Shown piece by piece: positions 15,255 to 57,690 of a DNA stretch of 64,000 nucleotides (within the stretch, counting starts at the first letter, position 1; every line of letters begins with the position of its first letter). Both the position numbers and the translations under genes were made by a program. Source of the stretch: Myxococcales bacterium (GTDB taxonomy: Bacteria; Myxococcota_C; UBA6777); assembly GCA_020632975.1 (NCBI GenBank), contig JACKEL010000004.1, forward strand, positions 271,963-335,962, given 5' to 3'. The notes under the pieces were generated by a model. The model did not search any database. It saw nothing but the letters and a program-made list of their open reading frames with translations, and was not told where the DNA came from.

Positions 15255-17606
15255 TCAGGGTTTGGGGAGGTTCTTGATCGCGTTGGTGACGATCTGGGGG
15301 GTAAGGATCTGGGGAAGGACGCGGAAAGAACCGTCTTTTCCATTAAAGAGGACGTAGAGTGGGACACCACTGCGCTTGAATTGTTCGAGGGTTTGGGTGA
15401 TCTCTTTGTTTCCATCGGTCCAGTCGCCAACGACGTAATGCACGCCGCGTTCTTGGAGGGCTTTGCGCACATCGTCGCTGCGAAGGGCAAGGCGTTCATT
15501 GGCTTTACAAGTGATGCACCAGTCTGCCGTGAAGTTCAGGAATATATTGGCTTTTTGCTTGAGGAGCCCCTCGAGTTTCTTTCGTGTGAAGGCCGTTTTT
15601 TTGAGGGTCTTGGAAGGTGTCTTGGCCCGTTTTGTGGTGGTACGAGGGGCGTTTGCTGCGGAGGCACGGCCTTCTTGGAAGGCTTCTTGAAGTGCGGTGC
15701 GTTGGGCATCTCTGTGATCGATTTGGGCTTGGTATTGGTTGGGGATGCCCCACACAAGGGTACACAAGACGATCACGACAGCGGCGCGACCTGCCCAACG
15801 GCGTTTGTTGCTACCAAAAGCCGTGATGTGTAAAAGCCATCCAGAAAAGGCGACCAGAAGGGCGCAGACGAGCGTGATCAAGATGCCTCGTGGCCCAGCG
15901 ATGGAGGTGAGGACCCACGCCAACCAGATCGCCGCGCCATAAAGCGGGAAAGCCATGATCTGTTTGAAGGTTTCCATCCAAGCACCTGGGCGCGGCAAGA
16001 TGCGCAGTGTGGAAGGATTCAACGAAAGAAGCAGGTAGGGAAAGGACATCCCCAAGCCCAACATCGCGAAGATCAAAAGCCCGACCCAAGGGGGTTGCAG
16101 AAGCGCGAAAGCGATCGCGCCTCCCATAAATGGCGCGGTACATGGCGTGGCGACGATCGTTGCGAGGAAGCCCGAGAAGAAAGAGCCCATGTATCCGCCT
16201 TGATCGGCGAGCTGGCTTCCTACATTCATCAGAGAGTTCCCCACCTCAAAAAGTCCTGAGAGGCTGAGTCCCATCCCAAAAAACAGCAAGATCAAAGGCA
16301 AGAGCACCGCTGCGGATTGAAGCTGATAACCCCATCCCAAGGAGCTTTCGAGGCCGACGAGCTTTTGGAGGGCGGGGATACGTAGCAGAAACAAGATCCC
16401 TGAAAGGCCCAAGAAGGAAAGCAAGACACCTGCTGTAAAAGCCCATCCATGGCGCTTTACGACTTGAGGCTGGGACTTGGCTTGCTCGACAAAGTGCAGA
16501 AGCTTGATCGAGAGCACGGGAAAAACGCAAGGCATCAAGTTGAGTAACATCCCGCCAAGGAAGGCAAACAAAAGCGCGAACCACACGGATTGAAGGGCTT
16601 CTTGATCCTTTCCTCCTTTGGCGAGCAGGCGATCCAGGCTGCTTCCTTGGGGCGAGGATGTGGGCGGCTTTGGCGACTTGGTCGTTGCGATCTTTGCGAT
16701 GGATGCGGAGGTTGGGCGGCTTGTGGCTTTGGCAAGAGGGACACTCGTTTGCGCACTTACCTCGTAACTGAGAAGTGGCTTGTTGGGTTCTCTTGAGACG
16801 ATCAGACCGCGTAGTTTGGTGCGTTCGGGCGTGTGATACTCGTTCTTTTCAACAGCGATGCGCAAGGTCTTGCCATGCCATGTTATCTTTTGTGGCGCAG
16901 CGTTGGAGATGATCGAGTGATCGATGGGATAAAAGGCGAGGTTTTTTCTGTTCGCAAAAGCGCTAGGAAGATCGGTGAGATCGATTTGGACATCATCTTC
17001 GCCGATGCGAAGGACGCCCTTGGTTTGGGGCCATGCGATGGGGGTTTGTGCGCGGGTTGTTGCGAAAAGTGCCTTTTGTGCGAGATGTTGGCTGGTGGGG
17101 GCAGAGGTTGGTGTCCCTGTGCTTTGTACGGGCAAAGTTAGAGACAGCGATCCGCTTCCTTTGATGCACTCTTCTTTGCACACCAGCCATGTCAAATCGA
17201 CGGATAATTGGACTTGTTTGGCTTTCAGATCTTTGGGAGGAGTGATCTTGATAGGAAGCAACACGCGTTCTTCATAGCCGAAGTTGGCGAGGATGCGAAC
17301 GCGGATCAGCTTGGGGGTGGGCCATTGAATCGACCCTGCTTGAAAGCCCGAAGGTAGCTTCCATGTGAGTTTGGGAGGGACGCCAGAGTCCCCAGCATTA
17401 CGCCAGTAAGTATGCCAGTGTTCCTCGAGATCTTGTTGGATGCCGACCCAGAAAGGCTCACCCGGTCGGATGGTTGGGGTTTCACTGATCAAAGAAAGTT
17501 GGATATGTGGGGCTTTGAGAGGGGCGGCGGAGGCATGGAGGATTGGTTGGGAAAAGAGCCACAAGCCCAAGACACCACAAGCGAAGAATCGCAAGATTCG
17601 AGTCAT
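15255..17606 (-). CDS. dsbD: Thiol:disulfide interchange protein DsbD (protein-disulfide reductase)
   Basis: N-terminal DsbD-alpha-like domain after a signal peptide, central multi-TM CcdA-like core, and C-terminal thioredoxin domain with WCITCK (CxxC). Start assigned to the internal ATG (MTRILRFF, signal-like) rather than the ORF-track 17705. Confidence 0.85.
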   Translation of the reverse strand: MTRILRFFACGVLGLWLFSQPILHASAAPLKAPHIQLSLISETPTIRPGEPFWVGIQQDLEEHWHTYWRNAGDSGVPPKLTWKLPSGFQAGSIQWPTPKLIRVRILANFGYEERVLLPIKITPPKDLKAKQVQLSVDLTWLVCKEECIKGSGSLSLTLPVQSTGTPTSAPTSQHLAQKALFATTRAQTPIAWPQTKGVLRIGEDDVQIDLTDLPSAFANRKNLAFYPIDHSIISNAAPQKITWHGKTLRIAVEKNEYHTPERTKLRGLIVSREPNKPLLSYEVSAQTSVPLAKATSRPTSASIAKIATTKSPKPPTSSPQGSSLDRLLAKGGKDQEALQSVWFALLFAFLGGMLLNLMPCVFPVLSIKLLHFVEQAKSQPQVVKRHGWAFTAGVLLSFLGLSGILFLLRIPALQKLVGLESSLGWGYQLQSAAVLLPLILLFFGMGLSLSGLFEVGNSLMNVGSQLADQGGYMGSFFSGFLATIVATPCTAPFMGGAIAFALLQPPWVGLLIFAMLGLGMSFPYLLLSLNPSTLRILPRPGAWMETFKQIMAFPLYGAAIWLAWVLTSIAGPRGILITLVCALLVAFSGWLLHITAFGSNKRRWAGRAAVVIVLCTLVWGIPNQYQAQIDHRDAQRTALQEAFQEGRASAANAPRTTTKRAKTPSKTLKKTAFTRKKLEGLLKQKANIFLNFTADWCITCKANERLALRSDDVRKALQERGVHYVVGDWTDGNKEITQTLEQFKRSGVPLYVLFNGKDGSFRVLPQILTPQIVTNAIKNLPKP

Positions 17607-17808
17607 CAAAAAGATCTCCCTTGTCGATATTAAGAAAGAGGATGCTTTCTTGGAGAGAACACCTGTTGCTTGCGTTGGATTCCCAAGTGACAGAGAAGGT
17701 TGCATTCGGCCGAAAAGAAAGCCCTTGCAGGCGAGTGGGAATTGGTGTCATCTCATAGAGATACGCGCTGTTACCAAGCGTCAAAAGAGAAGCATGGAGG
17801 AAGAAAAG

Positions 17809-20565
17809 ATGGTTTGGCGTGTGCTCTTGAAAAGATATCTAGTGTGGGGATCTTTGTTGTTGTTATGGGCCTTTCCGCGTTTGGCCTTTGCGCAACAAGG
17901 CTCGAACTGTCAGCCGCCCAACTTGATGGTGATTATTGATGCATCCAACAGTATGGGCAACAACAACAAGATCGCGAGCCAAGCTTGTACGACCAAAGCA
18001 TCTTGTAACCCGATCCCTTTCACCTTTCAGCCCGCCCCAGGGACGACACCTCGCTATGATTATTCGTGCAATGCCAACAAAAAGTGCTTGTACACGCGTT
18101 GGGATATCGCGAGGAATGCGCTAAAAGAAGTCGCCTATCAGTACGGAGGGACCGCCGCAAACAACTACAGCGATCGCAAAGCGCGCTTTGGTTTGGTGGC
18201 CTTCAACGATCTTGCGACTTTGGAAGCGACGATCACCGCCAACCCACCAAAGATGGCCAACCGTTTGGATGCCAAGACCCTGGCTTATGGAACGCGATTT
18301 ACCCGCGCTTTTACGGAGGCACGCAACCATCTTCAAAGTGTGATCAACAGCGACTCCGTGGCAAAACGCCCGACACATATCTTGTTTATGACGGATGGTG
18401 CGCCCACAGACGGGTGTGTCGATGCGCCCAATATGGTCCGCGATATGTACCAAGGGACGGGCACATTTGCCTTGAAAGATACCAAAGGCAATATTTATCC
18501 AGTCAAGACCTATGTGATCGGATTTGGCTCAGGGATCAACGCCAGCGCCAACAACTGCCTAACCAAGATGGCCGATCTTGGAGGAACCAAGCGCTGTGAC
18601 CCAAGCATCGCTGGGTGTGTGGCTTACTTTTTTGCGGACAACGCTGTCCAACTCAAGGGCGCGATGGATGCAATCGTCGATAACGCAACCCAAGAAGCTT
18701 GCGATGGGATCGACAACGACTGTGATGGAAAAACCGACGAAGATTACAAAGACCTCGGTCAAAGCTGCGATGTGGGCGTTGGGGAGTGCAAACGCACAGG
18801 GACGAAAGCTTGTCGCCCCAATGGTAGCGGGACACGTTGTGATATCGCTGCGGGCACACCTGCCGCAGAGATCTGCGATGGCAAAGACAACGACTGTGAT
18901 GGAAAAACCGATGAAGACTTCCCCACGCTGGGTTCGCCTTGCCAAGCGGGTGTCGGATCTTGTCGTAACAGCGGGGTCTTAGCGTGTCGTCCTGATGGCT
19001 TGTCGACGATTTGTAATGCTGTTCCTTTGCAGCCACAGCCTGAGGTCTGCGATGGCAAAGACAACGACTGCAACGGACAAATCGACGACAATCTCACGCA
19101 AGGTTGCTCCACAGCTTGCGGGACGGGCGTTGAGTTTTGCCAAGGTGGAAAGTGGGTCGGTTGTACCGCGCCCAAGACAGAAGCCGAGGTCTGTGATGGC
19201 CGAGACAACGACTGTAACGGGACTGTCGATGATGGTCTCAAGCGTCCTTGCACCACAAGCTGCGGAAGTGGCGAAGAAACCTGCGTGAATGGAAACTGGG
19301 TATTTTGTGATGCGCCCAAAGCAGAGCCTGAGATCTGTGATGGCAAAGACAACGACTGCGACGGAAAAACCGACGAAGGAATCGTTCCTCGTGCTTGCCA
19401 AGGAGATTGTGGGACGGGGACCGCACAGTGCGTCAATGGCGCTTATACAGGTTGCGACGGACCCAAGCCCGAAACAGAGGTCTGCGATGGCAAAGACAAC
19501 GACTGCAACGGACAGATCGACGATGGCCTAGAACGCGACTGCAAAAGCCTTTGTGGTGATGGAAAAGAACTCTGTAAGAATGGGTCGTGGGAAACCTGCA
19601 ACGCACCTCAACCCAAAACAGAGATCTGCGATGGCCAAGACAACGATTGCAACGGCAAGATCGACGACAACGCAACTTGCCCCACAGGTGAAAGCTGCGT
19701 CGAAGGCCTCTGTCGTCGTCCTTGTCGCAATGGTGAGTGTCCAACAGCGTTCCAATGCCGCGAAGGATTTTGTTTCTCCACGACCTGCGACAACATCACT
19801 TGTCCAGGCGATCTCGTTTGCAAAAGCGGCCAGTGTATCGACGCTTGCATTGGTGTGACTTGCCCTGATCAAGAAGTCTGTAAAGCTGGAAAGTGCGTGG
19901 AAAACAATTGTTTTGGTTTGGGATGTCCCACAGGGGAAGTCTGTAAAGCCGGACAGTGCGGGGTTGATCCTTGTGCTACTGTGACTTGCTCAAGTGACCA
20001 ATACTGCCGCGAGGGTTCTTGTGTCGCTGTTTGTAAGACAGATTCTTGCGCACCAGGCGAAGGATGCTCTGAAGGAAAGTGCGTACCCGATCCTTGTGCG
20101 GGTGTTTCTTGTGCGAACTTCCAGCGTTGCGTGAATGGAGCTTGCCAAGCGGACCCCTGTTTTGAAGTGACATGCCCCAATGGTCGGGTATGTGCTGATG
20201 GCAAGTGCCAAGAAGACCCATGTCTCGGCATCCAGTGCCCCGCAGGTTCAAGCTGTGTCGAAGGGGTTTGCAAGCAACCCTCTCGTCCACCCTTGCCAGA
20301 ACCCGTTGTAGAGGGCGTCACAGAGCCCGGCGATGAGATCGCCTCTGATGCAGAAGGGACGATCTCAAATGATGCCTCGCAACTCGATGATCCTACAGGA
20401 GAAAAAGTCTTCGGCGAGTCCAACTCTCCCAGTGAACGCTATGGAAGCGGCCAAGCCCCTGGATGTAGCTGTCAAACAGGGAATACGCCGCTGTCTGGAG
20501 GCATCTTGTTGTTCTTGTTGGTGTTCTTGAGAGTGCGCAGACGTCAACCTCAACGCGCTGAATAA
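17809..20565 (+). CDS. Secreted giant Cys-rich protein: vWA domain, seven MopE-type metal-binding repeats, C-x-G-x-C module array, MYXO-CTERM anchor
   Basis: Signal peptide MVWRVLLKRYLVWGSLLLLWAFPRLAFA after a GGAGG RBS. vWA MIDAS-like LMVIIDASNSMG. Seven copies of E[IV]CDG.DNDC[DN]G..D[ED]. C-terminal GCSCQTG...ILLFLLVFLRVRRRQ fits the MYXO-CTERM pattern. Confidence 0.82.
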   Translation: MVWRVLLKRYLVWGSLLLLWAFPRLAFAQQGSNCQPPNLMVIIDASNSMGNNNKIASQACTTKASCNPIPFTFQPAPGTTPRYDYSCNANKKCLYTRWDIARNALKEVAYQYGGTAANNYSDRKARFGLVAFNDLATLEATITANPPKMANRLDAKTLAYGTRFTRAFTEARNHLQSVINSDSVAKRPTHILFMTDGAPTDGCVDAPNMVRDMYQGTGTFALKDTKGNIYPVKTYVIGFGSGINASANNCLTKMADLGGTKRCDPSIAGCVAYFFADNAVQLKGAMDAIVDNATQEACDGIDNDCDGKTDEDYKDLGQSCDVGVGECKRTGTKACRPNGSGTRCDIAAGTPAAEICDGKDNDCDGKTDEDFPTLGSPCQAGVGSCRNSGVLACRPDGLSTICNAVPLQPQPEVCDGKDNDCNGQIDDNLTQGCSTACGTGVEFCQGGKWVGCTAPKTEAEVCDGRDNDCNGTVDDGLKRPCTTSCGSGEETCVNGNWVFCDAPKAEPEICDGKDNDCDGKTDEGIVPRACQGDCGTGTAQCVNGAYTGCDGPKPETEVCDGKDNDCNGQIDDGLERDCKSLCGDGKELCKNGSWETCNAPQPKTEICDGQDNDCNGKIDDNATCPTGESCVEGLCRRPCRNGECPTAFQCREGFCFSTTCDNITCPGDLVCKSGQCIDACIGVTCPDQEVCKAGKCVENNCFGLGCPTGEVCKAGQCGVDPCATVTCSSDQYCREGSCVAVCKTDSCAPGEGCSEGKCVPDPCAGVSCANFQRCVNGACQADPCFEVTCPNGRVCADGKCQEDPCLGIQCPAGSSCVEGVCKQPSRPPLPEPVVEGVTEPGDEIASDAEGTISNDASQLDDPTGEKVFGESNSPSERYGSGQAPGCSCQTGNTPLSGGILLFLLVFLRVRRRQPQRAE
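18700..19700 (+). repeat. Intragenic tandem DNA repeats (~140-150 bp period) encoding the MopE-type modules
   Basis: The string tgcgatggcaaagacaacgactg(c/t)(g/a)a(c/t)gg recurs at about 18877, 19051, 19330, 19480 and 19630. A closely related variant occurs at 19189. Confidence 0.6.
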
Positions 20566-30045: not shown

Positions 30046-30065
30046 AAGAGCACATTTGTGCTCTT
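30046..30065. promoter_or_regulatory. Perfect 9-bp inverted repeat with 2-nt spacer (AAGAGCACA TT TGTGCTCTT), ~25 nt upstream of the Cys-rich gene start
   Basis: Seen directly in the sequence. Operator-like position upstream of the Cys-rich gene start. Confidence 0.35.
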
Positions 30066-30090
30066 TTCCCCACAGATGAAGGAGACCTTT

Positions 30091-43762: not shown

Positions 43763-46438
43763 GTGTTAAAGAGCTTGCGTTCATGGTGGAGTCGTTTCTT
43801 ACATCCAGGTAGTGCCTTGTCCTATAAGCCTCTTTTGCTACAGGTCAACGCTTTTGAACCCAAGATGCAAGCGATGTCTGCACAAGAACTCGCTGGGCAA
43901 ACAGCCCTGTTTCGAGCGCGCCTAGAACAAGGACAGCCCCTTCTCTCTTTGTTGCCTGAAGCTTTTGCGACTGTGCGCGAAGTCGGGCGACGCGAGTTGG
44001 GGATGCGTCACTTTGATGTACAGATTCTTGGGGGAGCGGCCCTTGCGCACGGTGGGATCGCGGAGATGAAAACAGGGGAAGGAAAGACCCTTGTGGCGAC
44101 TTTGCCCGCTTATCTGTACGCGCTGCAAGGAAAAGGCGTCCATGTGATCACGGTCAACGATTATCTTGCCTCTCGTGATGCCGAGTGGATGGGCAAGATC
44201 TATCGTTTCTTGGGACTCGAAGTTGGGGTTGTCCTTGAAGATATGGGCGAAGGCGAAAAAGAGATCGCACGTCGTCAAACCGCTTACAGTGCGGATATCA
44301 CGTATGTTACGAACCACGAAGTGGTCTTTGATTATCTGCGTGATCACCTCGCCACACATCCGAGTGAACTTGTCCAACGCGCGCCTCACTTCGCTATCGT
44401 CGATGAAGTGGACCTGCTTTTGATTGATGAGGTACGTACACCATTGATCATCAGCGGCCCAGCCCATGAGGATGTTTCGTTGTTTGCGGACGTCGATAAG
44501 ATCATCCGCAAGCTTCAGATCGGCCCAGACCTCCGCTTTCATCCGCGTACCAAGACCGCGACACTCACAGAGTCTGGACAAGAAAAAGTCGAGGCCGCAC
44601 TGCAACGCAATCTCAGCGATCCTGACAACCTTGCTTGGTTTCATGCGGTCCATCAGTCCGTCCAAGCCCATGGTGCCTTTAAGCGCGATGTCGATTACAT
44701 CGTAAAAGGCGGGGAAGTCCAACTGATCGACGAGCACACAGGGCGGGTCTCTCCTGACAAACGCTTTTCAGATGGGCTTCACCAAGCCCTCGAAGCCAAA
44801 GAGCGACTGCGTGTACAGGCCGAAGATCGGACCTTTGCGCGGATGAGTTATCAGCAATACTTTCGACTTTATCCCAAACTTTGCGGGATGACGGGGACGG
44901 CTGCTTCTGAAAAGCAAGAGTTCTCCGAAACCTACGGTCTGCGGGTCTTGGCTGTCCCTACAAACAAGACCGTGCAACGAAAAGATTACATGGATGTGAT
45001 CTACGCATCTGAGCGCGAAAAACACGAAGCCATCGCCTCTTCCATCGAGGACATCCACGAAGAAGGTCAGCCTATCTTGGTCGGCACCACCTCTGTCGAA
45101 GAGTCCGAACAACTCGTGCGTTTGCTCAAAAAGCGCGGTCTCTCGTGCGAAGTCCTCAACGCCAAGGATCATGAACGAGAAGCCGATGTCGTCGCACAGG
45201 CCGGACGCAAGGGCGCGATCACCATCTCTACGAATATGGCGGGCCGCGGGACAGACATCTTGCTTGGCGGGAATGTCGAAAGGCTCGTCGCCTTGGAAGA
45301 AAAAAAGAAGGGCAAAAAAGCCTCCGCCCAAGAGATCGAGAAGCAGTGTGAGGCCGAACGCAAGGCTGTGATCGAAGCGGGCGGGCTGTTTGTGATCGGG
45401 ACTTCGCTACACGACTCCCCACGCCTCGATAACCAACTTCGCGGTCGCGCGGGGCGTCAAGGTGATCCTGGAGCGTCGCAGTTTTTTGTCTCTTTCGATG
45501 ATGAGATCTTTGCAAAGTACGGAGAGGCCGAAGTCGCGGCACTTCAACACGACTTTGAAGAACATCCTGAAGGAGAAGAGATCGACAATCGCTCTGTTCG
45601 AGCGATGCTCTATGCGCTCCGTGACAAGGTCACTTTCGAACATCGTGCTGAGCGCAAAGAAACGCTCAAATACGATAGCGTCGTGCATCAACAACGCGAA
45701 CAGATCTACCAGTGGCGCCAAGAGATCCTTTTGGAAGCTGTCTCTCCCCAAGAACATCGCAGCCAAGCGCGTGAGATGATCCTCGAAGTCCTCGAAGAAC
45801 AAGCTTTTCTCGCGTTTGATGGACTCCAACCTGACGAAGATCTTGGGCCGCTTTTTGATGAGTTTGAGCAGGTCTTGCAAGAGATCTTTCGTTTTCCTTT
45901 GGAAGTCCCGCGTCTTCCAGAGAGCCGTGATCTTGCAGATGCGGTCGTTGCGAAGATCCAAGAGGCCGTCCTTGCGGAGTTTGATCGTCGTTTTCCTTTC
46001 TCGTCGAGCGAAAAGGAAGAAGCGCCAAGCTCCAAAGCGACTGAGTCCTTGCCCCAAGCCCTTGTGGAGATGCAACGCACGCTGCTCCTCGAAAGCATTG
46101 ATGATGCTTGGATCGATCACCTCGGCGCCATCGAACGTTTGGAAGACAATGTCAGCCTCTATGGATACGCAGAACAAGATCCCATCGTGATCTTTCGCAG
46201 AGCAGCAGGGGTCCAGTTTGGTGAACTCTTGGCAGAGATCCGCTTGCGTGTCGTGAGCCTGTGGTTTGCCCTAGAACTTGAAGAAGTCCGCCCCTCACGT
46301 GAGAAGTCTGGTTCTGCGGAGAAAAAGAAAAAGTCTGAGAAAGAGAAGCCCGAAAAAGACGAGAAAAAAGCCAAACGCGACAAACATCCGCTCTTGCATC
46401 CCTCCAATCGCAAACGCCGCAAACGCAAGATGGCTTAA
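43763..46438 (+). CDS. secA: Preprotein translocase ATPase SecA
   Basis: MRHFDVQILGGAALAHGGIAEMKTGEGKTLVATLPAYL (DEAD-motor Walker A). Full-length, 891 aa, with a Lys-rich C-terminal tail ending in a CxxC-less short tail. Confidence 0.95.
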   Translation: MLKSLRSWWSRFLHPGSALSYKPLLLQVNAFEPKMQAMSAQELAGQTALFRARLEQGQPLLSLLPEAFATVREVGRRELGMRHFDVQILGGAALAHGGIAEMKTGEGKTLVATLPAYLYALQGKGVHVITVNDYLASRDAEWMGKIYRFLGLEVGVVLEDMGEGEKEIARRQTAYSADITYVTNHEVVFDYLRDHLATHPSELVQRAPHFAIVDEVDLLLIDEVRTPLIISGPAHEDVSLFADVDKIIRKLQIGPDLRFHPRTKTATLTESGQEKVEAALQRNLSDPDNLAWFHAVHQSVQAHGAFKRDVDYIVKGGEVQLIDEHTGRVSPDKRFSDGLHQALEAKERLRVQAEDRTFARMSYQQYFRLYPKLCGMTGTAASEKQEFSETYGLRVLAVPTNKTVQRKDYMDVIYASEREKHEAIASSIEDIHEEGQPILVGTTSVEESEQLVRLLKKRGLSCEVLNAKDHEREADVVAQAGRKGAITISTNMAGRGTDILLGGNVERLVALEEKKKGKKASAQEIEKQCEAERKAVIEAGGLFVIGTSLHDSPRLDNQLRGRAGRQGDPGASQFFVSFDDEIFAKYGEAEVAALQHDFEEHPEGEEIDNRSVRAMLYALRDKVTFEHRAERKETLKYDSVVHQQREQIYQWRQEILLEAVSPQEHRSQAREMILEVLEEQAFLAFDGLQPDEDLGPLFDEFEQVLQEIFRFPLEVPRLPESRDLADAVVAKIQEAVLAEFDRRFPFSSSEKEEAPSSKATESLPQALVEMQRTLLLESIDDAWIDHLGAIERLEDNVSLYGYAEQDPIVIFRRAAGVQFGELLAEIRLRVVSLWFALELEEVRPSREKSGSAEKKKKSEKEKPEKDEKKAKRDKHPLLHPSNRKRRKRKMA

Positions 46439-46558
46439 GGGCCCCGAACCTACCCTAGATATCCCTCCCACTTTCCTTTTTTATCTTCGTTTTCTGAAGA
46501 AAATATCCCCTGAAGTCAAGCTCTTCCTAGAATCGCACTTGTAAGAAAAAAGAGTGCG

Positions 46559-48400
46559 ATGCTAAGACAAAGTATCTTTCCTTCGAAGGTACAAAGATGT
46601 GTGACGAAGACGGGGGGAATCTTGAAGAAGCTCTTTTTCGTTGGATGGTGCGCGGTTTTTTCTGTTTTCGTGTTGCTCAAAGGATGTACTGAGCAACACA
46701 TCTTGCCGAACGAGACGTGTTCTGAAGCAAACTGTGGCGATGGTGGGACACAAAGCTCTATGCCACCGAGGATCGAGCCACCAGCGGAGTTTCCCAAACT
46801 AGGGGATGTGTGCTCGAAAGATACGGACTGTGGGACGGGTTTGATCTGTGTCTTGGAGAGTGAAGGGAACGGTCATTGTTTCCAAGATTGCTCACCCGCA
46901 CCGCTCGACTGTCAGAAAAACACGGATGGTCGGACGGTTTGTTTGCGCAATGAGAAAGAGCAGCGCTATTGCTTCCAGCCCAAGGCCAAAGACGGCCAAC
47001 GCTGTGGAGCGGGGATGCAAAACGACTGCGACAAAAACACAGAAGTCCCACTTTATTGCAACACCAAGACGTGGACGTGCGAAAAAGTCGCGCAATCCGA
47101 AAAAGAAGGGGACGCGTGTGATCTTGCCGAAGGGAAGGGATGTCTCGCTGGGTTGACCTGCGCGCCCAAAGACAAAAGTGGGAGAGGAGTTTGTTATCGT
47201 GTATGTGACGGTGATAACGGGGAGCTAGATTGCAAGGCGGCTGGATATGAAGGTTGTGCTCGTGACATCTCTTCTCCTACTCTGACGCTTTTTTGCTACC
47301 GCGATAATGTTGTGGAAGGTGGGGCTTGTGGGGTTTTTTCTCCTTTCCCATGCAACAGTGCCCTATCGCTGTATTGCGATAAAACCACAAAAACATGCAA
47401 AAAAGCCCCCCAAACAGGAAAGTTGGGGGATTCATGTTTTCCCGATGACCGCGCTCGACCGAGCGGATGCGAGGCAGGTTTGCTTTGTTTGGAAGGAAAG
47501 TGCGTCAAAAGCTGTAAAGATGATCCTGCCGTGTGCGCTGTGGGGGAACGGTGCGAGAAAGACACAAACGAGGCGTGGCGTTGCCTTCCTGCGAAAAAAG
47601 GGGAACCTTGCGAACCTGGGAAGACAAGGTGTGACTTTGGGTTGGCCTGCGATACAGACACCAAACGTTGTGAGTTGAGAAAAGCCTCTGAACCACCTGC
47701 TTTGGGGAAACCTTGCGGATCTGGACGGGTGCAAGGGGGATTTGTATGTGGTGGAGTTTTTGATTCTTTTAATGGAAGCGTCAAAGATCCTGTTTGGCTT
47801 CAAGACTGCGAAGACGATCCTGCCATTTGCTCGAAAAATACGGACGGGAGGACGGCATGTCTCCCCATCAGTGATACCAGAGGCGGCAGTCTCCTTCGAT
47901 ACTATGCGTGTTTTCGCCCGAATGCCAAAGAAGGAGAAGCTTGTGGTAACGTTGCGCAAGCTTTGTGTGAGGAGGATGATACGTCTCGACATCCCAAGCT
48001 TCTTTGTCACAAAGATGTATGCACGCGACCTACCATCCAGAAGAATGAAGGCGATCCATGTGATGGTCCTTTCTTGGATATACAAGAGTTTTTGAAGAAC
48101 GAAAGCATCCCGCGTCTTTGTGATCGCGATGCGGCTGTGCCTTTGGTTTGCGAGCCTAAGTCTCATACATGCGTCAAAGCTGGCTTGGTTGGGGAAGGTT
48201 TGCCTTGTTTGGCGGGGACAAGAAACCTCTGCGAAAAAGGGTTGCTTTGTTCTCAAGGGCCTTTCAGTCTTGTCGAAGCCGAAGGAGTCTGTCGAGCTGC
48301 GTGCAACCTGCGAAGCCCTCAATGTCCACAAGGAACATCTTGCAAGCGTTTGGGGCTCCTTCCACCCAAGATTCAAATAAGTCTCTGCACAAAAGATTAA
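46559..48400 (+). CDS. Secreted Cys-rich lipoprotein, paralog A (C-x-KNTDGRT-x-C family, uncharacterised)
   Basis: Lipobox-like VLLKGC. ~70 Cys. The recurring DC.KNTDGRT.C module appears three times. Collinear similarity to the next gene. Confidence 0.7.
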   Translation: MLRQSIFPSKVQRCVTKTGGILKKLFFVGWCAVFSVFVLLKGCTEQHILPNETCSEANCGDGGTQSSMPPRIEPPAEFPKLGDVCSKDTDCGTGLICVLESEGNGHCFQDCSPAPLDCQKNTDGRTVCLRNEKEQRYCFQPKAKDGQRCGAGMQNDCDKNTEVPLYCNTKTWTCEKVAQSEKEGDACDLAEGKGCLAGLTCAPKDKSGRGVCYRVCDGDNGELDCKAAGYEGCARDISSPTLTLFCYRDNVVEGGACGVFSPFPCNSALSLYCDKTTKTCKKAPQTGKLGDSCFPDDRARPSGCEAGLLCLEGKCVKSCKDDPAVCAVGERCEKDTNEAWRCLPAKKGEPCEPGKTRCDFGLACDTDTKRCELRKASEPPALGKPCGSGRVQGGFVCGGVFDSFNGSVKDPVWLQDCEDDPAICSKNTDGRTACLPISDTRGGSLLRYYACFRPNAKEGEACGNVAQALCEEDDTSRHPKLLCHKDVCTRPTIQKNEGDPCDGPFLDIQEFLKNESIPRLCDRDAAVPLVCEPKSHTCVKAGLVGEGLPCLAGTRNLCEKGLLCSQGPFSLVEAEGVCRAACNLRSPQCPQGTSCKRLGLLPPKIQISLCTKD

Positions 48401-48499
48401 GCAGAGGTGGGGGGTTTCAAGCCCGCTCGTCTCATTCGTGTTGGAAAGCTCGACGACGTACAGAAAAACGAAGCGAGAACTTTGGTTGGATGGGGTCTG

Positions 48500-50629
48500 A
48501 TGATGCACAAGTTGGGTCTGAAAAAGGGCGTATCGCTTGGATGGATGGTCCTTTTCGGTCTTTTTTTGTGGAGCACTTTGGGAGGTTGCGTGGAGGTGTC
48601 TATCTCCACACCACCTGATGGAAACTGCTTGCCCGATCGTACTTGTTTTTCTGAGCCAAAGGTGGAGAAAGCCTCCCCTGAAAAGCTCCTTGAAGAGAAG
48701 CTTTTGGAGGGAGAGGCAGACGCTTCTTCCAAAGAAGAGCCCCTGCAAGACTTCGTTTCAGAGCCTCTTGGGGCGGATGAAAGAACCCTAGAGCGACAGG
48801 AAGAGCTTGCTCTTGAAAAGGAGTCTTTTCGTGAGAAAAAGGCTGAAGAGCCCTCTCTCGAACCTCGCTTGGAGGAGACAATACCTGAAGAAAAGACCGT
48901 AGATGGGGCGCACGCAGAAGAAAAGTATCCTGAAGAGCGGGTCACGGAGCCCTCTTTCGAACCGTTACAAGATGGGGTTCCGTCGGATACCTCGGTGGAT
49001 GCGACGATTCCAGGCCCTCCTACGATCTCACCTACTCCAAGTTTGCCAAGGCTGGGGTTTGTTTGCGCGCAAGATGCGGACTGTGGAACGGGTTTGGTTT
49101 GTGTTGCTCATCAAGGCAGCCCATCAAGATGCCATCAAGACTGTCGGACTTCTCCTCTGGATTGCGCCAAAAATACGGATGGTCGGACGCTTTGCTTCTC
49201 CAATGACAAAGGCCAGCGTTATTGTACCAACATGCATGCCCAAGAAGGACAGCAGTGCGGGTTTGGTATGCAGGCTTCTTGTGAGCTTGCGGGGCGCGTT
49301 CCGCTTTTTTGTCATCCGCAGACATGGACCTGCGAAAAAGTCCAACAGACGGGCGGGATGGGAGAGGCTTGTGATATCGAAGCGGGCAAGGGATGTCTGC
49401 CGAAGCTGACGTGTACTTTTGATCGCACGCTGAAAAATCCACGTTGTCTTGCTTTGTGTCGTGCGGAGTATCCTGCGAAAGAGTGCCAAGCATTTGGTTT
49501 GGAGGACTGCGGAAGGCATCTAAGCGGATATCCCTTGCATTGTGGTGGCGAGGGAGCGGGAGAAGGCGAAGCATGCGGTGGGATCTCGCCCGTCTATTGT
49601 AAGAGTTGGCTGTCTTTGTATTGCGATGCGACCACGAAGACATGCAAAAAGGCTCCTGCGACCGCAAAAAGCGGCGAGGCTTGTACGCCTTCAGCGAGTG
49701 GAGTCGGATGTCTTGCGGGGCTCTTCTGCGTTGGAGGAAGATGCGTCGAAAACTGTCAAACGACGCCCTCTTTATGTGCGAAAGGAGAACGCTGCGAGGC
49801 CGATGCGAAGGGGCTTTGGGGATGTCGGTCTGCTTTGGCTGGAGAGGCTTGTGATCCGCAAAAGACGACGTGTGTAGGGGCCTTTGCTTGTGATGCGCAG
49901 AGCCAGACATGCGCTTTGCCTCCTGCTCCAACAGGAGCGGTGTTGGGAGGGGCATGTGCTTCTTCGCCTACGAAGCACGTTCAAGGGTTGGTCTGTTTGG
50001 ATGTCTACGACTCTTTTCGCGGAACAGCGGGGGGCGAGCGTTGGTTGCAGGATTGCAGCCAAGATCGAACCATCTGCTCTAAAAATACGGATGGTCGGAC
50101 GACATGTTATCCGCTGGCTCGCTACGCCACGGGATTTATTGAGCCGCGTTGGGCTTGCTTGCGGATAGACGCCAAAGAAGGAGAGGCGTGCGGAAGTGCA
50201 GCACAAGCCCGTTGTGAAGATACTTCTTCTTCTCGGCTGGCGGCCTTGCGTTGTGTTCAAGGGCTTTGTCAGCGCTTGAGCATCCAGACAAAAGAAGGAG
50301 ATCCTTGCGATGGTCCTTCGTTGGACAACAGCGCACAACGTCTCTGTGATCGCGATGCGATGGTTCCTTTGGTGTGCGATAACATCACAAAGTCCTGTGT
50401 CAAAGCAGATGTCGTGCAAAAAGGTGATGCTTGTTTGGGCGGAAGCAAGGCGGTTTGCGCTGTGGGTCTGATCTGTTTGCCTACGATATACGCATGGAGT
50501 TATGATGAGGCGGGAACTTGCCAAGTTGCGTGCGATCTTAAAAGCCCGCAGTGCCCGCAAGGATCGACATGCAAGTTGCCAAACTTGATCACGCTCAAGG
50601 TACATCAGAGTTATTGCTACGAGGATTAG
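48500..50629 (+). CDS. Secreted Cys-rich lipoprotein, paralog B, with an acidic Glu/Leu-rich N-terminal extension
   Basis: MMHKLG...LWSTLGGC lipobox. DCRTSPLDCAKNTDGRTLC...QRYC...QTWTCEKV aligns residue-for-residue with paralog A. Confidence 0.7.
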   Translation: MMHKLGLKKGVSLGWMVLFGLFLWSTLGGCVEVSISTPPDGNCLPDRTCFSEPKVEKASPEKLLEEKLLEGEADASSKEEPLQDFVSEPLGADERTLERQEELALEKESFREKKAEEPSLEPRLEETIPEEKTVDGAHAEEKYPEERVTEPSFEPLQDGVPSDTSVDATIPGPPTISPTPSLPRLGFVCAQDADCGTGLVCVAHQGSPSRCHQDCRTSPLDCAKNTDGRTLCFSNDKGQRYCTNMHAQEGQQCGFGMQASCELAGRVPLFCHPQTWTCEKVQQTGGMGEACDIEAGKGCLPKLTCTFDRTLKNPRCLALCRAEYPAKECQAFGLEDCGRHLSGYPLHCGGEGAGEGEACGGISPVYCKSWLSLYCDATTKTCKKAPATAKSGEACTPSASGVGCLAGLFCVGGRCVENCQTTPSLCAKGERCEADAKGLWGCRSALAGEACDPQKTTCVGAFACDAQSQTCALPPAPTGAVLGGACASSPTKHVQGLVCLDVYDSFRGTAGGERWLQDCSQDRTICSKNTDGRTTCYPLARYATGFIEPRWACLRIDAKEGEACGSAAQARCEDTSSSRLAALRCVQGLCQRLSIQTKEGDPCDGPSLDNSAQRLCDRDAMVPLVCDNITKSCVKADVVQKGDACLGGSKAVCAVGLICLPTIYAWSYDEAGTCQVACDLKSPQCPQGSTCKLPNLITLKVHQSYCYED

Positions 50630-50758
50630 GGCTTTTCCCAAAGGGGAGACTTCTTCGCGATCAGCTGGGCGATTGTAGAGTTTTCGCCATGATTTAGAGG
50701 GGGGGAGGTCAAGTTTCTGGGTTGGAGATCTTTTCGTGGGAAAGGTCGTCGAGCTTGC

Positions 50759-51781
50759 TTAGGTGGTGGGGCGCGCTGGGAGATGTTTTTGGAGGAAGCG
50801 CAGCCAGTTGCCGCGGACGAATCCGTCGATCTCTTCGTCGTTCCATCCGCGTTGTGCGAGTCTGTCACAGATCTTTGTAAAGTCTTTGGGTTCTTGGATG
50901 CCGGTAGGAAGGGTATTTGCGCCATAGCCACCATCAAGGTCGCTGCCGAGTCCGATGGTGTCGCGGCGTCCCATGTACTCACAAAGGATCTCGATCTGGG
51001 CGACGGCATCGTCGATTTGGGTGCGTTTTTTTAGTCCATGGCTGTGCAAAAACGGACTGAGCAAGTTGAGTCCGATCATCCCATCACGTTGACCGATGGC
51101 GCGAATCAGATCATCTGGAAGGTGACGTTGGTCTTGGCTTTGGAGCGACGAACGACTGCTCGAATGACTCGCAATGATCGGGCCTTGGCTGATCTCCAAA
51201 AGCTGCCAAGCGGCTTCATCACAAAGATGGGAGAGGTCGTGGATCATGCCGTATTGATCGAGGGCATGGACAAGCTCGCGTCCTTCTTGGCTGAGAGGGC
51301 GTGGGCGGGCATTGCCACCTGCATAGCGTGTTCCTTGGTTCCAAGCCATGCCAACGAGACGTAAGCCTTTTTCGTACCACCATCCGACCTCTTCAGGTGA
51401 ACGGATGGGATCGGCGCCTTCCATCGACAAAAGGACTTGTGTGCGCGAGCCTGTCGGTCGTTCGAGGTCTTCGCGGTAATAGATGCGGTCGATCACGCGG
51501 GTTTGTTCCCAAAGCTCGTACATCGTGAGTTGGCGGACGCCTGCTTTGTGTGCGCCTTCGACAGCGTCGTTGCTTGGGTATCCACAAGGACCTGAAAAGT
51601 TTGGTGCTGTAAAGATCGTCCCGATACATTGGGTGATACCGCCGTCTTGCATACTGGGAAAGGTCAAAGAGGCGGGCTGTGGGGGTCCTTGGGCTTCTTG
51701 GGGAGAGACCAGCATGTCGCGTCCCATCAGGGCGAGACATGCGAGGTCAAGGTGTCCATCAAACCAATCTTTTTTCTGCAT
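50759..51781 (-). CDS. Membrane dipeptidase (peptidase family M19)
   Basis: DGHLDLA at the N-terminus (DGHNDLP-like). HSSSR...GLGSDLDGG metal-ligand motifs. Start set at the internal MQKKDWFDGH Met. Confidence 0.8.
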   Translation of the reverse strand: MQKKDWFDGHLDLACLALMGRDMLVSPQEAQGPPQPASLTFPSMQDGGITQCIGTIFTAPNFSGPCGYPSNDAVEGAHKAGVRQLTMYELWEQTRVIDRIYYREDLERPTGSRTQVLLSMEGADPIRSPEEVGWWYEKGLRLVGMAWNQGTRYAGGNARPRPLSQEGRELVHALDQYGMIHDLSHLCDEAAWQLLEISQGPIIASHSSSRSSLQSQDQRHLPDDLIRAIGQRDGMIGLNLLSPFLHSHGLKKRTQIDDAVAQIEILCEYMGRRDTIGLGSDLDGGYGANTLPTGIQEPKDFTKICDRLAQRGWNDEEIDGFVRGNWLRFLQKHLPARPTT

Positions 51782-55778: not shown

Positions 55779-56552
55779 TCAGGAAAGATCAAGCTCGATA
55801 CCAAGGGGACAATGATCTGAGCCTTCGACATCAGACCAGATAAAAGCATCGCGGAGATGAGGCTGTAGAGCGGGTTTGACCAACACATAATCGATCCGCC
55901 ACCCGATGTTGCGGGCACGAGCGCCTTGTCGTTGGCTCCACCATGTATAATGCCCCGAACCATCGTGCTTTTGACGAAAGGTGTCGATCCAACCTCCCTC
56001 AAGCCAACGTTGAAACTCTTCGCGTTCTTCTGGGAGGAATCCGCTGGTTTCTTGGTTTTCTTTGGGCCGTGCGAGATCGATCTCTTGATGAGCTGTGTTG
56101 AAGTCTCCCATCACGACGAGTTTTTTGTGGGTCTTTTCGATATCTTTGAGTTTGCGATAGAGCGCTTGGTAAAACCCCAACTTATAGGGCACACGGCTGT
56201 TATCGCGGTCTCGGCCACTCCCGTTGGGAAAGTACACATTGGCCACCACAAGATCGCCAAAGTAAGCGATCTGCAAACGCCCTTCATCGTCCCATGCTTC
56301 GCCTAGTGAGGTCTCGATATGATCGGGTGGACGGCGACTGTAGATCGCGACGCCACTGTAGCCTTTGCGTTCTGCGGGCACAAAGTGAGTAAACCAACCT
56401 TCTGGCTGGCGCGTTTGCTGCGAAAGTTGCGAGGGAAGAGCGCGCACTTCTTGAAGGCCAAGGATGTCCGCTCCACATGTCTCAAGCCAAGCATCGAAAC
56501 CTTTGCGAACGCACGCACGCAAACCATTTACATTCCATGAAAGTAACCGCAA
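55779..56552 (-). CDS. xth: Exodeoxyribonuclease III (AP endonuclease Xth)
   Basis: LLSWNVNGLRA, ADILGLQEVRA, GYSGVAIYSR, and C-terminal SDHCP motifs. Start reassigned to an in-frame TTG preceded by GGAGAA, giving the canonical MRLLSWNVNG N-terminus. The ORF-track ATG at 56630 would add 26 aa. Confidence 0.8.
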   Translation of the reverse strand: MRLLSWNVNGLRACVRKGFDAWLETCGADILGLQEVRALPSQLSQQTRQPEGWFTHFVPAERKGYSGVAIYSRRPPDHIETSLGEAWDDEGRLQIAYFGDLVVANVYFPNGSGRDRDNSRVPYKLGFYQALYRKLKDIEKTHKKLVVMGDFNTAHQEIDLARPKENQETSGFLPEEREEFQRWLEGGWIDTFRQKHDGSGHYTWWSQRQGARARNIGWRIDYVLVKPALQPHLRDAFIWSDVEGSDHCPLGIELDLS

Positions 56553-56589
56553 TCTGTGTTCTCCATCTCTAACAACTGAGGAAAGATGT

Positions 56590-57690
56590 ATGGGCGACTT
56601 CTCCAAAAGTGTCCAAGAGGTCTCTGCCACACAAAACGCACAAGATACTATGAATACCCCCGTCGAACAAGCGCGACGAGAGCGTGAGGCCGAGGCTTTG
56701 CGCTCACAGGATGTTGGTAAGCTTGTGCAGATCTTGGGTGCGCGGCACTCTCCGCTCGAAGACCTTTACGCTTCTTTGCTACAAAGCCGATGGCGCTGGT
56801 TGTTTGCGCTTGCGGCGGCCCTTTATCTGACGATCAATGCGCTTTTTGCAACAGCCTACTGGCTGATCCCTCAAGGTATCCAAGGGGGAAAAGGTGCATG
56901 GTCAGAGGCTTTCTTTTTTAGTGTTCAGACTTTTTCTACGATAGGTTATGGCGCGCTTTCTCCAAAGGGGTTGCTGGCCAACATGTTGGTGACCTTTGAG
57001 GCTTTGGTGGGGTTGATCAGTGCGGCCTTGGTCACAGGATTGATCTTTGCGAAGTTTGCGCGCCCAACAGCGCGTGTGCTCTTTAGTAAGAGCCTTGTGG
57101 TGCACAAACGCGATGGTCTGCCTTGTCTGCTCTTTCGGGTCGCGAATCGCAGGGGGTCCAACATCGTAGAAGCCAATATCTCGATGACCGTTTTGCTAGA
57201 GGAGCGGACCAAAGAGGGCGATGTGATGAAGCGCTTGTACGACATGAAGTTGCAGCGAAAAGTCTCGCCCGTCTTTTTGTTGAGTTGGGTGGTGATCCAC
57301 CCGATCGATGAGGAGAGTCCGCTTTTTGGGATGAGCCACGAAGAGTTGCTGCGCACAGACGCAAGGTTCTTCATCTCGTTGACAGGGATCGATGCGGTCT
57401 TTGCGCAAACGGTCCATGCCTACCACTTTTATTGGGCAGGAGATGTCTTGTGGCACCACCGCTTTGTGGACGTGATTCATCGCCTTTCAGATGGGCGTAC
57501 ACGCCTGAATCTGCATAAGTTTCATGATGCTGTTCCGCTTCCTGGGGATTTGTGTGTGGCGCACTGTGAACGAGAGAAGACCTACCTTTCGCCCCAAGAA
57601 GCTGCGGCCCAAGAGTCCGATCCTGCGCCACCTTCGGATCCTGATGCATTGAATGTCGATCTTGCAGCTTCTTCAGAGATCGATGCTTGA
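56590..57690 (+). CDS. Inward-rectifier-type potassium channel (KirBac-like)
   Basis: Pore helix plus selectivity filter FFFSVQTFSTIGYG. Two TM helices. C-terminal Kir cytoplasmic beta-rich domain. Start at the internal ATG with a GAGGA RBS. Confidence 0.8.
   Translation: MGDFSKSVQEVSATQNAQDTMNTPVEQARREREAEALRSQDVGKLVQILGARHSPLEDLYASLLQSRWRWLFALAAALYLTINALFATAYWLIPQGIQGGKGAWSEAFFFSVQTFSTIGYGALSPKGLLANMLVTFEALVGLISAALVTGLIFAKFARPTARVLFSKSLVVHKRDGLPCLLFRVANRRGSNIVEANISMTVLLEERTKEGDVMKRLYDMKLQRKVSPVFLLSWVVIHPIDEESPLFGMSHEELLRTDARFFISLTGIDAVFAQTVHAYHFYWAGDVLWHHRFVDVIHRLSDGRTRLNLHKFHDAVPLPGDLCVAHCEREKTYLSPQEAAAQESDPAPPSDPDALNVDLAASSEIDA

What the first reader, a model, noticed from the sequence alone, without database searches (positions are those of the whole stretch)
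46559..50629. Tandem paralogous giant Cys-rich lipoproteins defining an uncharacterised C-x-KNTDGRT-x-C module
Two adjacent same-strand genes of 613 and ~710 aa are residue-for-residue collinear over long stretches. Compare DCSPAPLDCQKNTDGRTVC...QRYCF...KTWTCEKV with DCRTSPLDCAKNTDGRTLC...QRYCT...QTWTCEKV. Each has a lipobox signal and 60-70 cysteines. Paralog B gained an acidic EEK-rich N-terminal extension. This points to a recent tandem duplication of an unknown extracellular disulfide-rich family.
Basis: seen in the sequence. Interest (0 to 1): 0.55.

Follow-up and report, generated by a model that had tools for sequence, protein, structure and literature searches.

The report
Old tandem cysteine-rich exported protein paralogs
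Two neighbouring genes of an uncultured myxobacterium encode related exported proteins, each with 60 conserved cysteines; they belong to a very rare, undescribed protein family of unknown function, and the duplication that made them is old, not recent.

Summary
Gene A (46622/46559..48400) and gene B (48500..50629) are collinear paralogs: 47% identity over 548 aa, E = 3e-156, and 40% identity at non-Cys positions. Both have 60 Cys after the signal-peptide Cys. Each carries C-x2-N-x-DGR-x2-C twice, giving 4 matches in the window against 0 expected.

Three points need correcting.
- The duplication is old: synonymous sites are saturated (pS 0.80).
- Only B has a canonical lipobox. A has LLKGC.
- The window's B is a chimera. 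A sister MAG with 98.9% identical DNA has three copies (A-M-B). The window lacks 1,843 bp, so B has M's 5' end. A 393-bp gene-conversion tract links A and M.

Most likely these are disulfide-locked, envelope-tethered binding proteins. The ligand is unknown. The domain family is new, within an ordinary kind of protein.

The parts
46622..48400 (+). Gene A: 592 aa from the TTG at 46622 (613 aa if the ATG at 46559 is used); 60 Cys after the signal-peptide Cys. Identical to NCBI H6728_06455, which is annotated with a truncated start (565 aa).
46622..46687 (+). A signal peptide, (M)KKLFFVGWCAVFSVFVLLKG|C. It has a hydrophobic core (KD 2.37) and ends in a non-canonical lipobox-like LLKGC.
46796..47101 (+). 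A module X1-Y1 (8-Cys plus 4-Cys mini-domains), holding the first CQKNTDGRTVC (46910-46942).
46762..47154 (+). Tract 94.7% identical in DNA to the middle paralog M of the sister MAG, where the rest of the gene is about 68-73% identical. dS is 0.12-0.15 here against 2.0 elsewhere. This is a gene-conversion tract.
47690..48202 (+). A core module X4-Y4-Y5 (171 aa), the unit shared with all distant family members. It holds CSKNTDGRTAC (47828-47860). AF2 model pLDDT 84.1, pTM 0.75.
48500..50629 (+). Gene B: 709 aa from the ATG at 48500; 60 Cys after the lipobox Cys. Corresponds to NCBI H6728_06460, which is annotated with a truncated start (677 aa).
48500..48589 (+). B signal peptide, MMHKLGLKKGVSLGWMVLFGLFLWSTLGG|C, with a canonical lipobox (L-G-G-C).
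48519..48555 (+). Deletion junction. Left of about 48555 the window matches the 5' end of sister-MAG gene M; right of it, gene B. Relative to the sister MAG, 1,843 bp (the body of M) are absent. The flanking homology is only about 37 bp and imperfect.
48647..49060 (+). B acidic, Pro-rich low-complexity linker (138 aa; 30 E, 17 P; pI 4.3). A, M and P0003 lack it. Not a DNA tandem repeat.
49040..49345 (+). B module X1-Y1, with CAKNTDGRTLC (49163-49195).
49931..50428 (+). B core module X4-Y4-Y5, with CSKNTDGRTTC (50075-50107).

Best explanation
SHOWN:
- A and B are old tandem paralogs of a very rare protein family found, apart from two unconfirmed motif matches, only in uncultured Myxococcota or 'Deltaproteobacteria' MAGs. 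They sit in an uncultured Myxococcales MAG (H6728).
- Each protein has an N-terminal signal peptide ending in a conserved Cys, followed by a C-x4/5-C hairpin and a variable linker. The linker is short in A and is a 138-aa acidic segment in B.
- A body of about 530 aa follows. It is built from alternating 8-Cys ('X') and 4-Cys ('Y') beta-hairpin mini-domains in the order X1Y1-X2Y2-X3Y3-X4Y4Y5-X5.
- Exactly 60 Cys follow the signal-peptide Cys in all four paralog types.
- The family-defining unit is the ~150-aa X-Y-Y core. Its signature is G-[LF]-x-C ... C-x-Q-[DE]-C-x6-C-x2-N-x-D-G-R-x2-C.
- The locus is dynamic between near-identical strains: 3 versus 2 copies, a chimeric M::B gene, and an A/M conversion tract. 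Orthologues are nevertheless under purifying selection.

INFERRED:
- The proteins are exported by Sec. The conserved Cys is lipid-modified (clear for B and most family members, uncertain for A).
- The 60 Cys form about 30 disulfides, giving a rigid, protease-resistant ectodomain held away from the membrane by the linker.
- The ectodomain works as a binding module in the cell envelope or on the cell surface. The conserved polar Q/N-x-DGR cluster, between Cys6 and Cys7 of the X domain, is the most likely ligand- or cation-contact site or a structural keystone.
- The ligand is unknown.
For: Paralogy:
- A versus B is 47% identical, E = 3e-156. 61 Cys columns are invariant across 6 sequences.

Age:
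- pS 0.80, dN 0.52 for A versus B.

Internal repeats:
- hhalign of X1Y1 against X4Y4 gives 98.5% probability, E = 2.9e-15. Other pairs score about 1e-5.
- jackhmmer domain hits for X1Y1 and X2Y2 are 1e-20 to 1e-32.
- Cys2 and Cys4 of X4 are lost together in the A/B/M/P0003 clade, which implies they pair with each other.

Rarity and distribution:
- 13 hits at E ≤ 1e-3 among 1.84 billion representatives. All are 'hypothetical' proteins from Myxococcota or Deltaproteobacteria MAGs.
- A motif scan of 185,579 species genomes found 17 loci, 15 of them confirmed by the core HMM, in about 8 MAGs.
- A BLAST cluster holds 31 ORFs from 10 genomes or assemblies, with repeated tandem pairs.

Export:
- A, B, M and P0003 have hydrophobic N-termini (KD 2.1-2.8) with a conserved Cys-[TV]-E.
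- Nearly all complete distant members end their signal peptide in a small residue followed by Cys.

Structure:
- The core model has pLDDT 84.1 and pTM 0.75. It is nearly all beta-hairpins, and the N-x-DGR segment lies in the blocks with pLDDT 94-96.

Conservation:
- Q and R 100%, N and D 97%, G 95% in 38 distinct domain copies.

Purifying selection:
- omega is 0.39 (A/A') and 0.17 (B/B').
Against: - No functional evidence of any kind exists. There is no known-domain partner and no gene neighbour conserved across the family.
- The SecA adjacency is seen only in the same species.
- A's LLKGC, M's FSKGC and P0003's FWRC break the lipobox rule, so some copies may be cleaved by signal peptidase I or stay signal-anchored.
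- Disulfide formation is assumed from export and the even Cys count. It was not observed.
- The full-length model is poor (pLDDT 61.5).
Confidence: 0.55

Rival explanations
1. Multi-headed protease inhibitors. An array of small disulfide-locked domains, tethered to the envelope, would protect the cell from its own or competitors' secreted proteases. Kazal, antistasin and knottin-type inhibitor arrays work this way.
For: - The architecture is about 10 tandem mini-domains.
- From general knowledge, Myxococcota secrete many proteases.
Against: - No Pfam inhibitor family is hit.
- The most conserved residues (Q, N, D, G, R) sit in a high-confidence, conserved segment, whereas inhibitor reactive-site loops are usually variable.
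- No protease gene is consistently adjacent. The M19 dipeptidase downstream is on the opposite strand and is seen only in this species.
Confidence: 0.15
2. Secreted or surface-presented toxin or antimicrobial effector built from knottin-like units and used in predation or competition.
For: - Copy number varies between strains, and the paralogs are in tandem.
Against: - There is no immunity-like small gene and no secretion-system gene nearby.
- Orthologues are under purifying rather than diversifying selection.
- The domains pack into a compact 150-aa unit (pTM 0.75) and do not look like independent releasable peptides.
Confidence: 0.08
3. Metal-binding or redox-buffering Cys-rich envelope protein, in which the cysteines act as ligands and not as disulfides, in the manner of MopE-type or metallothionein-like proteins.
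For: - The proteins are about 10% Cys.
- The same window encodes a VWA protein with 7 MopE-type 'putative metal-binding' repeats (17440..20565).
- Distant member P0016 has a sub-threshold MopE hit.
Against: - A and B do not hit PF11617 at E ≤ 1.
- His is rare and there are no CxxC or CC clusters.
- Cys spacing and the joint loss of Cys2 and Cys4 fit pairwise disulfides.
- The model is made of beta-hairpins of the disulfide-rich type.
Confidence: 0.07
4. One reading: a recent tandem duplication, with B gaining an acidic extension afterwards.
For: The genes are adjacent on the same strand with collinear products. B's linker is absent from A, M and P0003.
Against: - pS is 0.80 (saturated), and blastn aligns A and B DNA only in fragments at about 68-73% identity.
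- A homologue from another genome is as close to A as B is.
- A third old paralog, M, exists in the sister strain.
Confidence: 0.02

Closest known systems
Colipase-fold cysteine-rich domains (Dickkopf CRD2, colipase, draxin C-terminal domain)
Inhibitor cystine knot (knottin) peptides and small disulfide-rich protease inhibitors (e.g. AmFPI-1)
   Different: The matches are not significant and there is no sequence relationship. The domains here pack into a larger compact unit (pTM 0.75) and are membrane-tethered.
Other Cys-rich repeat proteins of Myxococcota (MopE-type PF11617 repeats; Myxococcus cysteine-rich repeat proteins such as TraA-type receptors)
   Same: Same phylum, same general design (signal peptide or lipobox, low-complexity linker, many disulfide-rich repeats), and the same genomes. 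The window itself has a VWA + MopE-repeat protein, and L003 has a 954-aa, 105-Cys lipoprotein next to family member P0007.
   Different: A and B match none of those models in Pfam or NCBIfam at E ≤ 1. The repeat unit and signature differ. The family is far rarer: 13 of 1.84 billion representatives.
Pfam DX module (PF01666) and Granulin (PF00396)
   Same: These are the only Pfam models with any score: DX at E 0.0025 on A residues 83-110, and granulin at E 0.017 on residues 332-372.
   Different: Both fall below the gathering scores (18.7 < 25; 15.8 < 20.9), appear only in A and not in B, and cover a single hairpin each.

Membership tests
Bacterial lipoprotein (signal peptidase II substrate) | N-terminal hydrophobic signal peptide ending in a lipobox [LVI][ASTVI][GAS]-C with no charged residue just before it (PROSITE PS51257-type rule, from general knowledge) | tested here: inconclusive
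   B (TLGG|C) meets the rule. A (LLKG|C), sister-strain M (FSKG|C) and P0003 (FWR|C) carry K or R at -2 or -1 and do not. The Cys and the following [TV]-E are invariant, and exactly 60 Cys follow in all four. No dedicated predictor (SignalP, LipoP) was available.
Bacterial lipoprotein (signal peptidase II substrate) | Actual N-acyl-diacylglyceryl modification of the +1 Cys | not testable with these tools
   Needs biochemistry: globomycin sensitivity, mass spectrometry.
Dickkopf / colipase fold | Sequence match to Pfam Dickkopf_N (PF04706) or the colipase families | tested here: not met
   No hit at E ≤ 1 for A or B, and none at E ≤ 0.1 for 10 distant members.
Dickkopf / colipase fold | Significant structural superposition on a solved member | tested here: inconclusive
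Inhibitor cystine knot (knottin) | Three-disulfide knot topology (I-IV, II-V, III-VI) | not tested
Pfam DX module / Granulin | Score at or above the Pfam gathering threshold | tested here: not met
   DX 18.7 bits (cut-off 25); Granulin 15.8 bits (cut-off 20.9); A only.
MopE-type putative metal-binding repeat (PF11617) | Match to PF11617 | tested here: not met
   No hit for A or B at E ≤ 1. The model works on this genome: 120 bits on window ORF 17440..20565.
NCBIfam-named Myxococcota Cys-rich repeat or lipoprotein families | Match to any NCBIfam model | tested here: not met
   Zero families at E ≤ 1.
The 'N-x-DGR' Cys-rich core family proposed here | X-Y-Y core with G-[LF]-x-C ... C-x-Q-[DE]-C-x6-C-x2-N-x-DGR-x2-C followed by two 4-Cys units | tested here: met
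   Both A and B contain one full core (iE 9e-71 and 8e-56) plus a second X-Y copy with the motif (iE 3e-32 and 6e-29).

The most novel reading that the evidence does not exclude
The X-Y-Y 'N-x-DGR' core is a new disulfide-rich fold with a conserved polar binding pocket. The copy-variable, recombining tandem clusters (a 3-versus-2 copy polymorphism, a chimeric gene, a gene-conversion tract, and tandem pairs in several genomes) would then encode a set of surface receptors. A small clade of uncultured marine or engineered-system Myxococcota would use them to recognise prey, kin or matrix. That would make them a bacterial, lipid-anchored functional analogue of eukaryotic Dickkopf/colipase-type ligand binders.
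Probability: 0.12. Interest if true: 0.6.

Novelty: new variant of a known kind. Interest (0 to 1): 0.33.

Why it matters
If the inference is right, this adds an undescribed disulfide-rich domain family with a sharply conserved Q/N-x-DGR signature. It is absent from Pfam, NCBIfam and the PDB. Myxococcota are known for elaborate surface proteins, and this family is confined to a handful of uncultured lineages.

The locus is also a clean small example of how tandem surface-protein arrays change between near-identical strains. It shows a deletion that fuses one gene's start to another gene's body, and gene conversion confined to one module.

On the practical side, public annotation of both genes starts downstream of the signal peptide (565 and 677 aa). 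This hides the fact that the proteins are exported. Without a ligand or phenotype the significance stays modest, because Cys-rich hypothetical lipoproteins are common in this phylum.

Tried and rejected
- Pfam and NCBIfam scans of A and B, and Pfam scans of 10 distant members, gave nothing at threshold.
- A PDB sequence-profile search with the core gave 0 hits at E ≤ 1.
- Foldseek against the PDB gave nothing (best E 1.3). The afdb50 library was unavailable.
- The search for related loci failed twice. With the core alignment it found no stretch conserved enough. With the 4-protein alignment in GTDB species genomes, 36 pattern matches were found and none confirmed, so this species appears not to be among the representatives.
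- A word-indexed protein search with the core profile returned only 2 proteins, far fewer than the exhaustive HMMER run.
- A search for conserved gene neighbours across 21 loci found none shared beyond orthologous sub-groups and other Cys-rich genes.
- The promoter and terminator scan of 46300-50900 was no better than shuffles.
- No Rfam family and no meaningful DNA tandem repeat lie in 46000-51000.
- Three literature searches (Myxococcota cysteine-rich lipoprotein; Dickkopf with myxobacteria; disulfide-rich lipoproteins in Myxococcus) found nothing relevant.
- Assembly collapse as the cause of the 2-versus-3 copy difference is unlikely. The junction homology is only about 37 bp and imperfect, with exact runs under 10 nt and therefore shorter than assembler k-mers. 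It cannot be excluded without reads.
- An EF-hand-like reading of K-N-T-D-G-R-T was rejected, because the position that would be loop residue 1 is not a conserved acidic residue.
Full report
**1. What is there**

The region holds two + strand ORFs, 46559..48400 and 48407..50629. They are identical to NCBI proteins H6728_06455 and H6728_06460 of a 'Myxococcales bacterium' MAG, both named 'hypothetical protein'. NCBI starts both genes downstream of the hydrophobic N-terminus, giving 565 and 677 aa.

The upstream parts are conserved between the paralogs and their homologues: W9, C22 and E24 are invariant, and there is a hydrophobic core of KD 2.1-2.8.
- For B the real start is the ATG at 48500 (MMHKLGLKK..., 709 aa). 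P0002 has the same N-terminus.
- For A the likelier start is the TTG at 46622 (KKLFFVGW..., 592 aa). GGGGGGA lies 4 nt upstream, and the gene caller used this start in the sister MAG. The ATG at 46559 (613 aa) cannot be excluded.

**2. Check of the observation**

BLASTP of A against B gives one collinear alignment of 548 residues, 47% identical, with 14 gaps, E = 3e-156. Two hundred composition-preserving shuffles of B never exceed 41.6 bits, against 455 observed. Non-Cys positions are 40% identical, and 61 of 62 Cys columns are shared. The refutation condition (cysteine-only similarity with no module order) is therefore not met.

Cys counts are 63 and 61. After the conserved signal-peptide Cys, exactly 60 remain in A, B, the sister-strain paralog M and P0003. 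The back-translated motif C-x2-N-x-DGR-x2-C occurs four times in the 64-kb window, all in these two genes, with 0 expected by chance.

**3. Anatomy**

From the Cys pattern and profile comparisons the mature protein reads as follows:
- a C-x4/5-C hairpin;
- a linker;
- then X1Y1-X2Y2-X3Y3-X4Y4Y5-X5, where X is an 8-Cys unit (G-x2-C-x5-C-x2-GL-x-C-x9-C-x3-C-x6-C-x9-C-x9-C) and Y is a 4-Cys unit (EG-x2-CG-x6-C-x9-C-x6-C).

The repeat evidence varies by unit:
- X1Y1 against X4Y4 is clearly homologous (hhalign probability 98.5%, E = 2.9e-15).
- Other pairs are weaker, around 1e-5.
- An iterated core profile recovers X1Y1 and X2Y2 at 1e-18 to 1e-32. X3Y3 and X5 come out only marginally, so those two rest mainly on the Cys pattern.

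X4 has lost Cys2 and Cys4 together in A, B, M and P0003, whereas distant members keep both. That argues the two pair with each other.

KNTDGRT sits between Cys6 and Cys7 of X1 and X4 only. B carries a 138-aa acidic, Pro-rich linker (30 E, 17 P, pI 4.3) that A, M and P0003 lack. It is not a DNA tandem repeat. Distant members (P0006, P0007, P0010, P0012, P0014) have unrelated low-complexity linkers in the same place, so a variable tether is a trait of the family.

**4. Relatives**

The word-indexed search of 5.8 billion clusters found four clusters of close relatives, two of which are A and B themselves, and one weak hit. An exhaustive HMMER profile search of 1.84 billion representatives found 13 proteins at E ≤ 1e-3. 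All named ones are 'hypothetical protein' from Myxococcota, Myxococcales or Deltaproteobacteria MAGs.

Twelve of the 13 carry C-x2-N-x-DGR-x2-C once. What they share with A and B is the ~150-aa X-Y-Y core.

A 41-bit DNA pattern for QDC-x6-C-x2-N-x-DGR-x2-C was scanned over 185,579 species genomes. It hit 17 loci, of which 15 were confirmed by the core HMM. These lie in about eight MAGs with 1-6 copies per genome, and essentially all are Myxococcota or 'Deltaproteobacteria'.

BLAST clustering of the fetched loci gives 31 family ORFs in 10 genomes or assemblies, repeatedly as tandem pairs. Across 38 distinct domain copies, the non-Cys residues conserved at 95% or more are G17, Q32 (100%), N44, D46, G47 and R48 (100%).

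**5. Locus history**

Contig JACKEK010000045 of MAG H6727 (L001) is collinear with the window at 98.9% and 98.6% DNA identity. It has the same neighbours (SecA upstream, M19 dipeptidase downstream) but three paralogs: A' (592 aa), M (613 aa, = P0002) and B' (703 aa).

The window lacks 1,843 bp. Left of about 48555 it matches the 5' end of M exactly, and right of that it matches B'. The window's B is therefore an in-frame M::B chimera.

The junction lies in about 37 bp of imperfect homology inside the signal-peptide coding region. That is too short and too imperfect for a typical assembler collapse, so a real deletion is the more likely reading. Only reads can prove it.

M is an old paralog, about 50-60% identical to A and B. 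The exception is a 393-bp tract (window 46762-47154; X1-Y1) that is 94.7% identical to A. There dS is 0.12-0.15, against 2.0 in the rest of the gene, which marks a gene-conversion tract.

Nei-Gojobori counts:
- A against B gives pS 0.80 (saturated) and dN 0.52.
- P0003, a single-copy gene in a different genome and context, is 51%, 53% and 46% identical to A, M and B. The A/M/B splits are thus about as old as that lineage split.
- Orthologue pairs give omega 0.39 (A/A') and 0.17 (B/B'), which indicates purifying selection.

**6. Comparison with known families**

- Pfam gives only sub-threshold DX-module and granulin hits in A and nothing in B.
- NCBIfam gives nothing.
- Ten distant members give no relevant Pfam hit.
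- The core profile finds no PDB sequence.

AlphaFold2 on the full protein with 4 sequences is poor (pLDDT 61.5). The core with a 17-row alignment is good (pLDDT 84.1, pTM 0.75). It consists of beta-hairpins plus two short helices, and the motif region is at pLDDT 94-96.

- with the full model: Dickkopf-1 C-terminal domain, colipase, draxin, a fungal protease inhibitor, IGFBP N-domains and spider knottins;

The theme, small extracellular disulfide-rich binder and inhibitor folds, is consistent but statistically weak. I treat it as a functional analogy and not as membership.

**7. Mechanism**

*Shown:* signal peptide; an even and invariant Cys count; modular beta-hairpin architecture; a conserved polar signature; purifying selection; no conserved partner genes.

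*Inferred:*
- Sec export.
- Lipidation of the conserved Cys. This is canonical in B and in most family members and non-canonical in A.
- About 30 disulfides.
- A rigid ectodomain on a flexible tether, acting as a binding module in the envelope or at the cell surface.
- The Q/N-x-DGR cluster as a binding site or structural keystone.

Rivals are a protease inhibitor, a toxin or effector, and a metal binder. All are less supported, and none is excluded by experiment.

**8. Verdict**

The family is undescribed and extremely rare. It is nevertheless one more Cys-rich hypothetical lipoprotein family in a phylum rich in them, with no functional handle.

The most solid new facts are the definition of the X-Y-Y core and its signature, the old age of the duplication, and the strain-level 3-to-2 copy change that produced a chimeric gene, together with the A/M conversion tract. 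Interest is modest.

Noticed in passing
window 48519-48555; L001 8001-9862: The sister MAG (GCA_020633035.1), at about 98.9% DNA identity, has three tandem paralogs where the window has two. The window's B gene carries the promoter-proximal 56 nt of the missing middle gene, so it is an in-frame chimera.
   Followed up: yes
window 46559-46702 and 48500-48596: The public (NCBI) annotations of both genes start downstream of the signal peptide (565 and 677 aa). The exported and lipoprotein nature is therefore invisible in the database records.
   Followed up: partly
window 17440-20565 (+): A 1041-aa ORF with 95 Cys: a von Willebrand A domain plus 7 MopE-type 'putative metal-binding' Cys repeats (PF11617, 120 bits). 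It is a second, unrelated Cys-rich exported protein in the same window.
   Followed up: partly
window 30058-30816 (+): A 252-aa ORF with 29 Cys (11%) and a signal-peptide-like N-terminus (…LICLLLFAFPSKADA). No Pfam hit.
   Followed up: partly
window 56464-57690 (+): A bacterial homologue of inward-rectifier K+ channels (Pfam IRK_C 4.9e-29, IRK 4.2e-12), i.e. a KirBac-type channel.
   Followed up: no
window 43763-46438 (+): SecA lies directly upstream on the same strand. Its C-terminus is a long Lys/Glu/Arg-rich tail (…KKKKSEKEKPEKDEKKAKRDK…RKRRKRKMA) with no Cys, so the usual C-terminal zinc-binding motif appears to be absent.
   Followed up: no
L003 4931-7795 and 9802-11130; L004 9466-10722: Distant family members also sit in clusters of Cys-rich lipoproteins. 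P0007 lies between a 954-aa, 105-Cys lipoprotein and a 442-aa family-related ORF. P0010 is followed by a 418-aa tandem paralog (core HMM E = 4e-35).
   Followed up: partly
window 47432-48748 (-) and 49032-49955 (-): Long antisense ORFs (438 and 307 aa) overlap A and B. I found no homologues for them. The sense frames are conserved under purifying selection, so I read these as shadow ORFs.
   Followed up: partly
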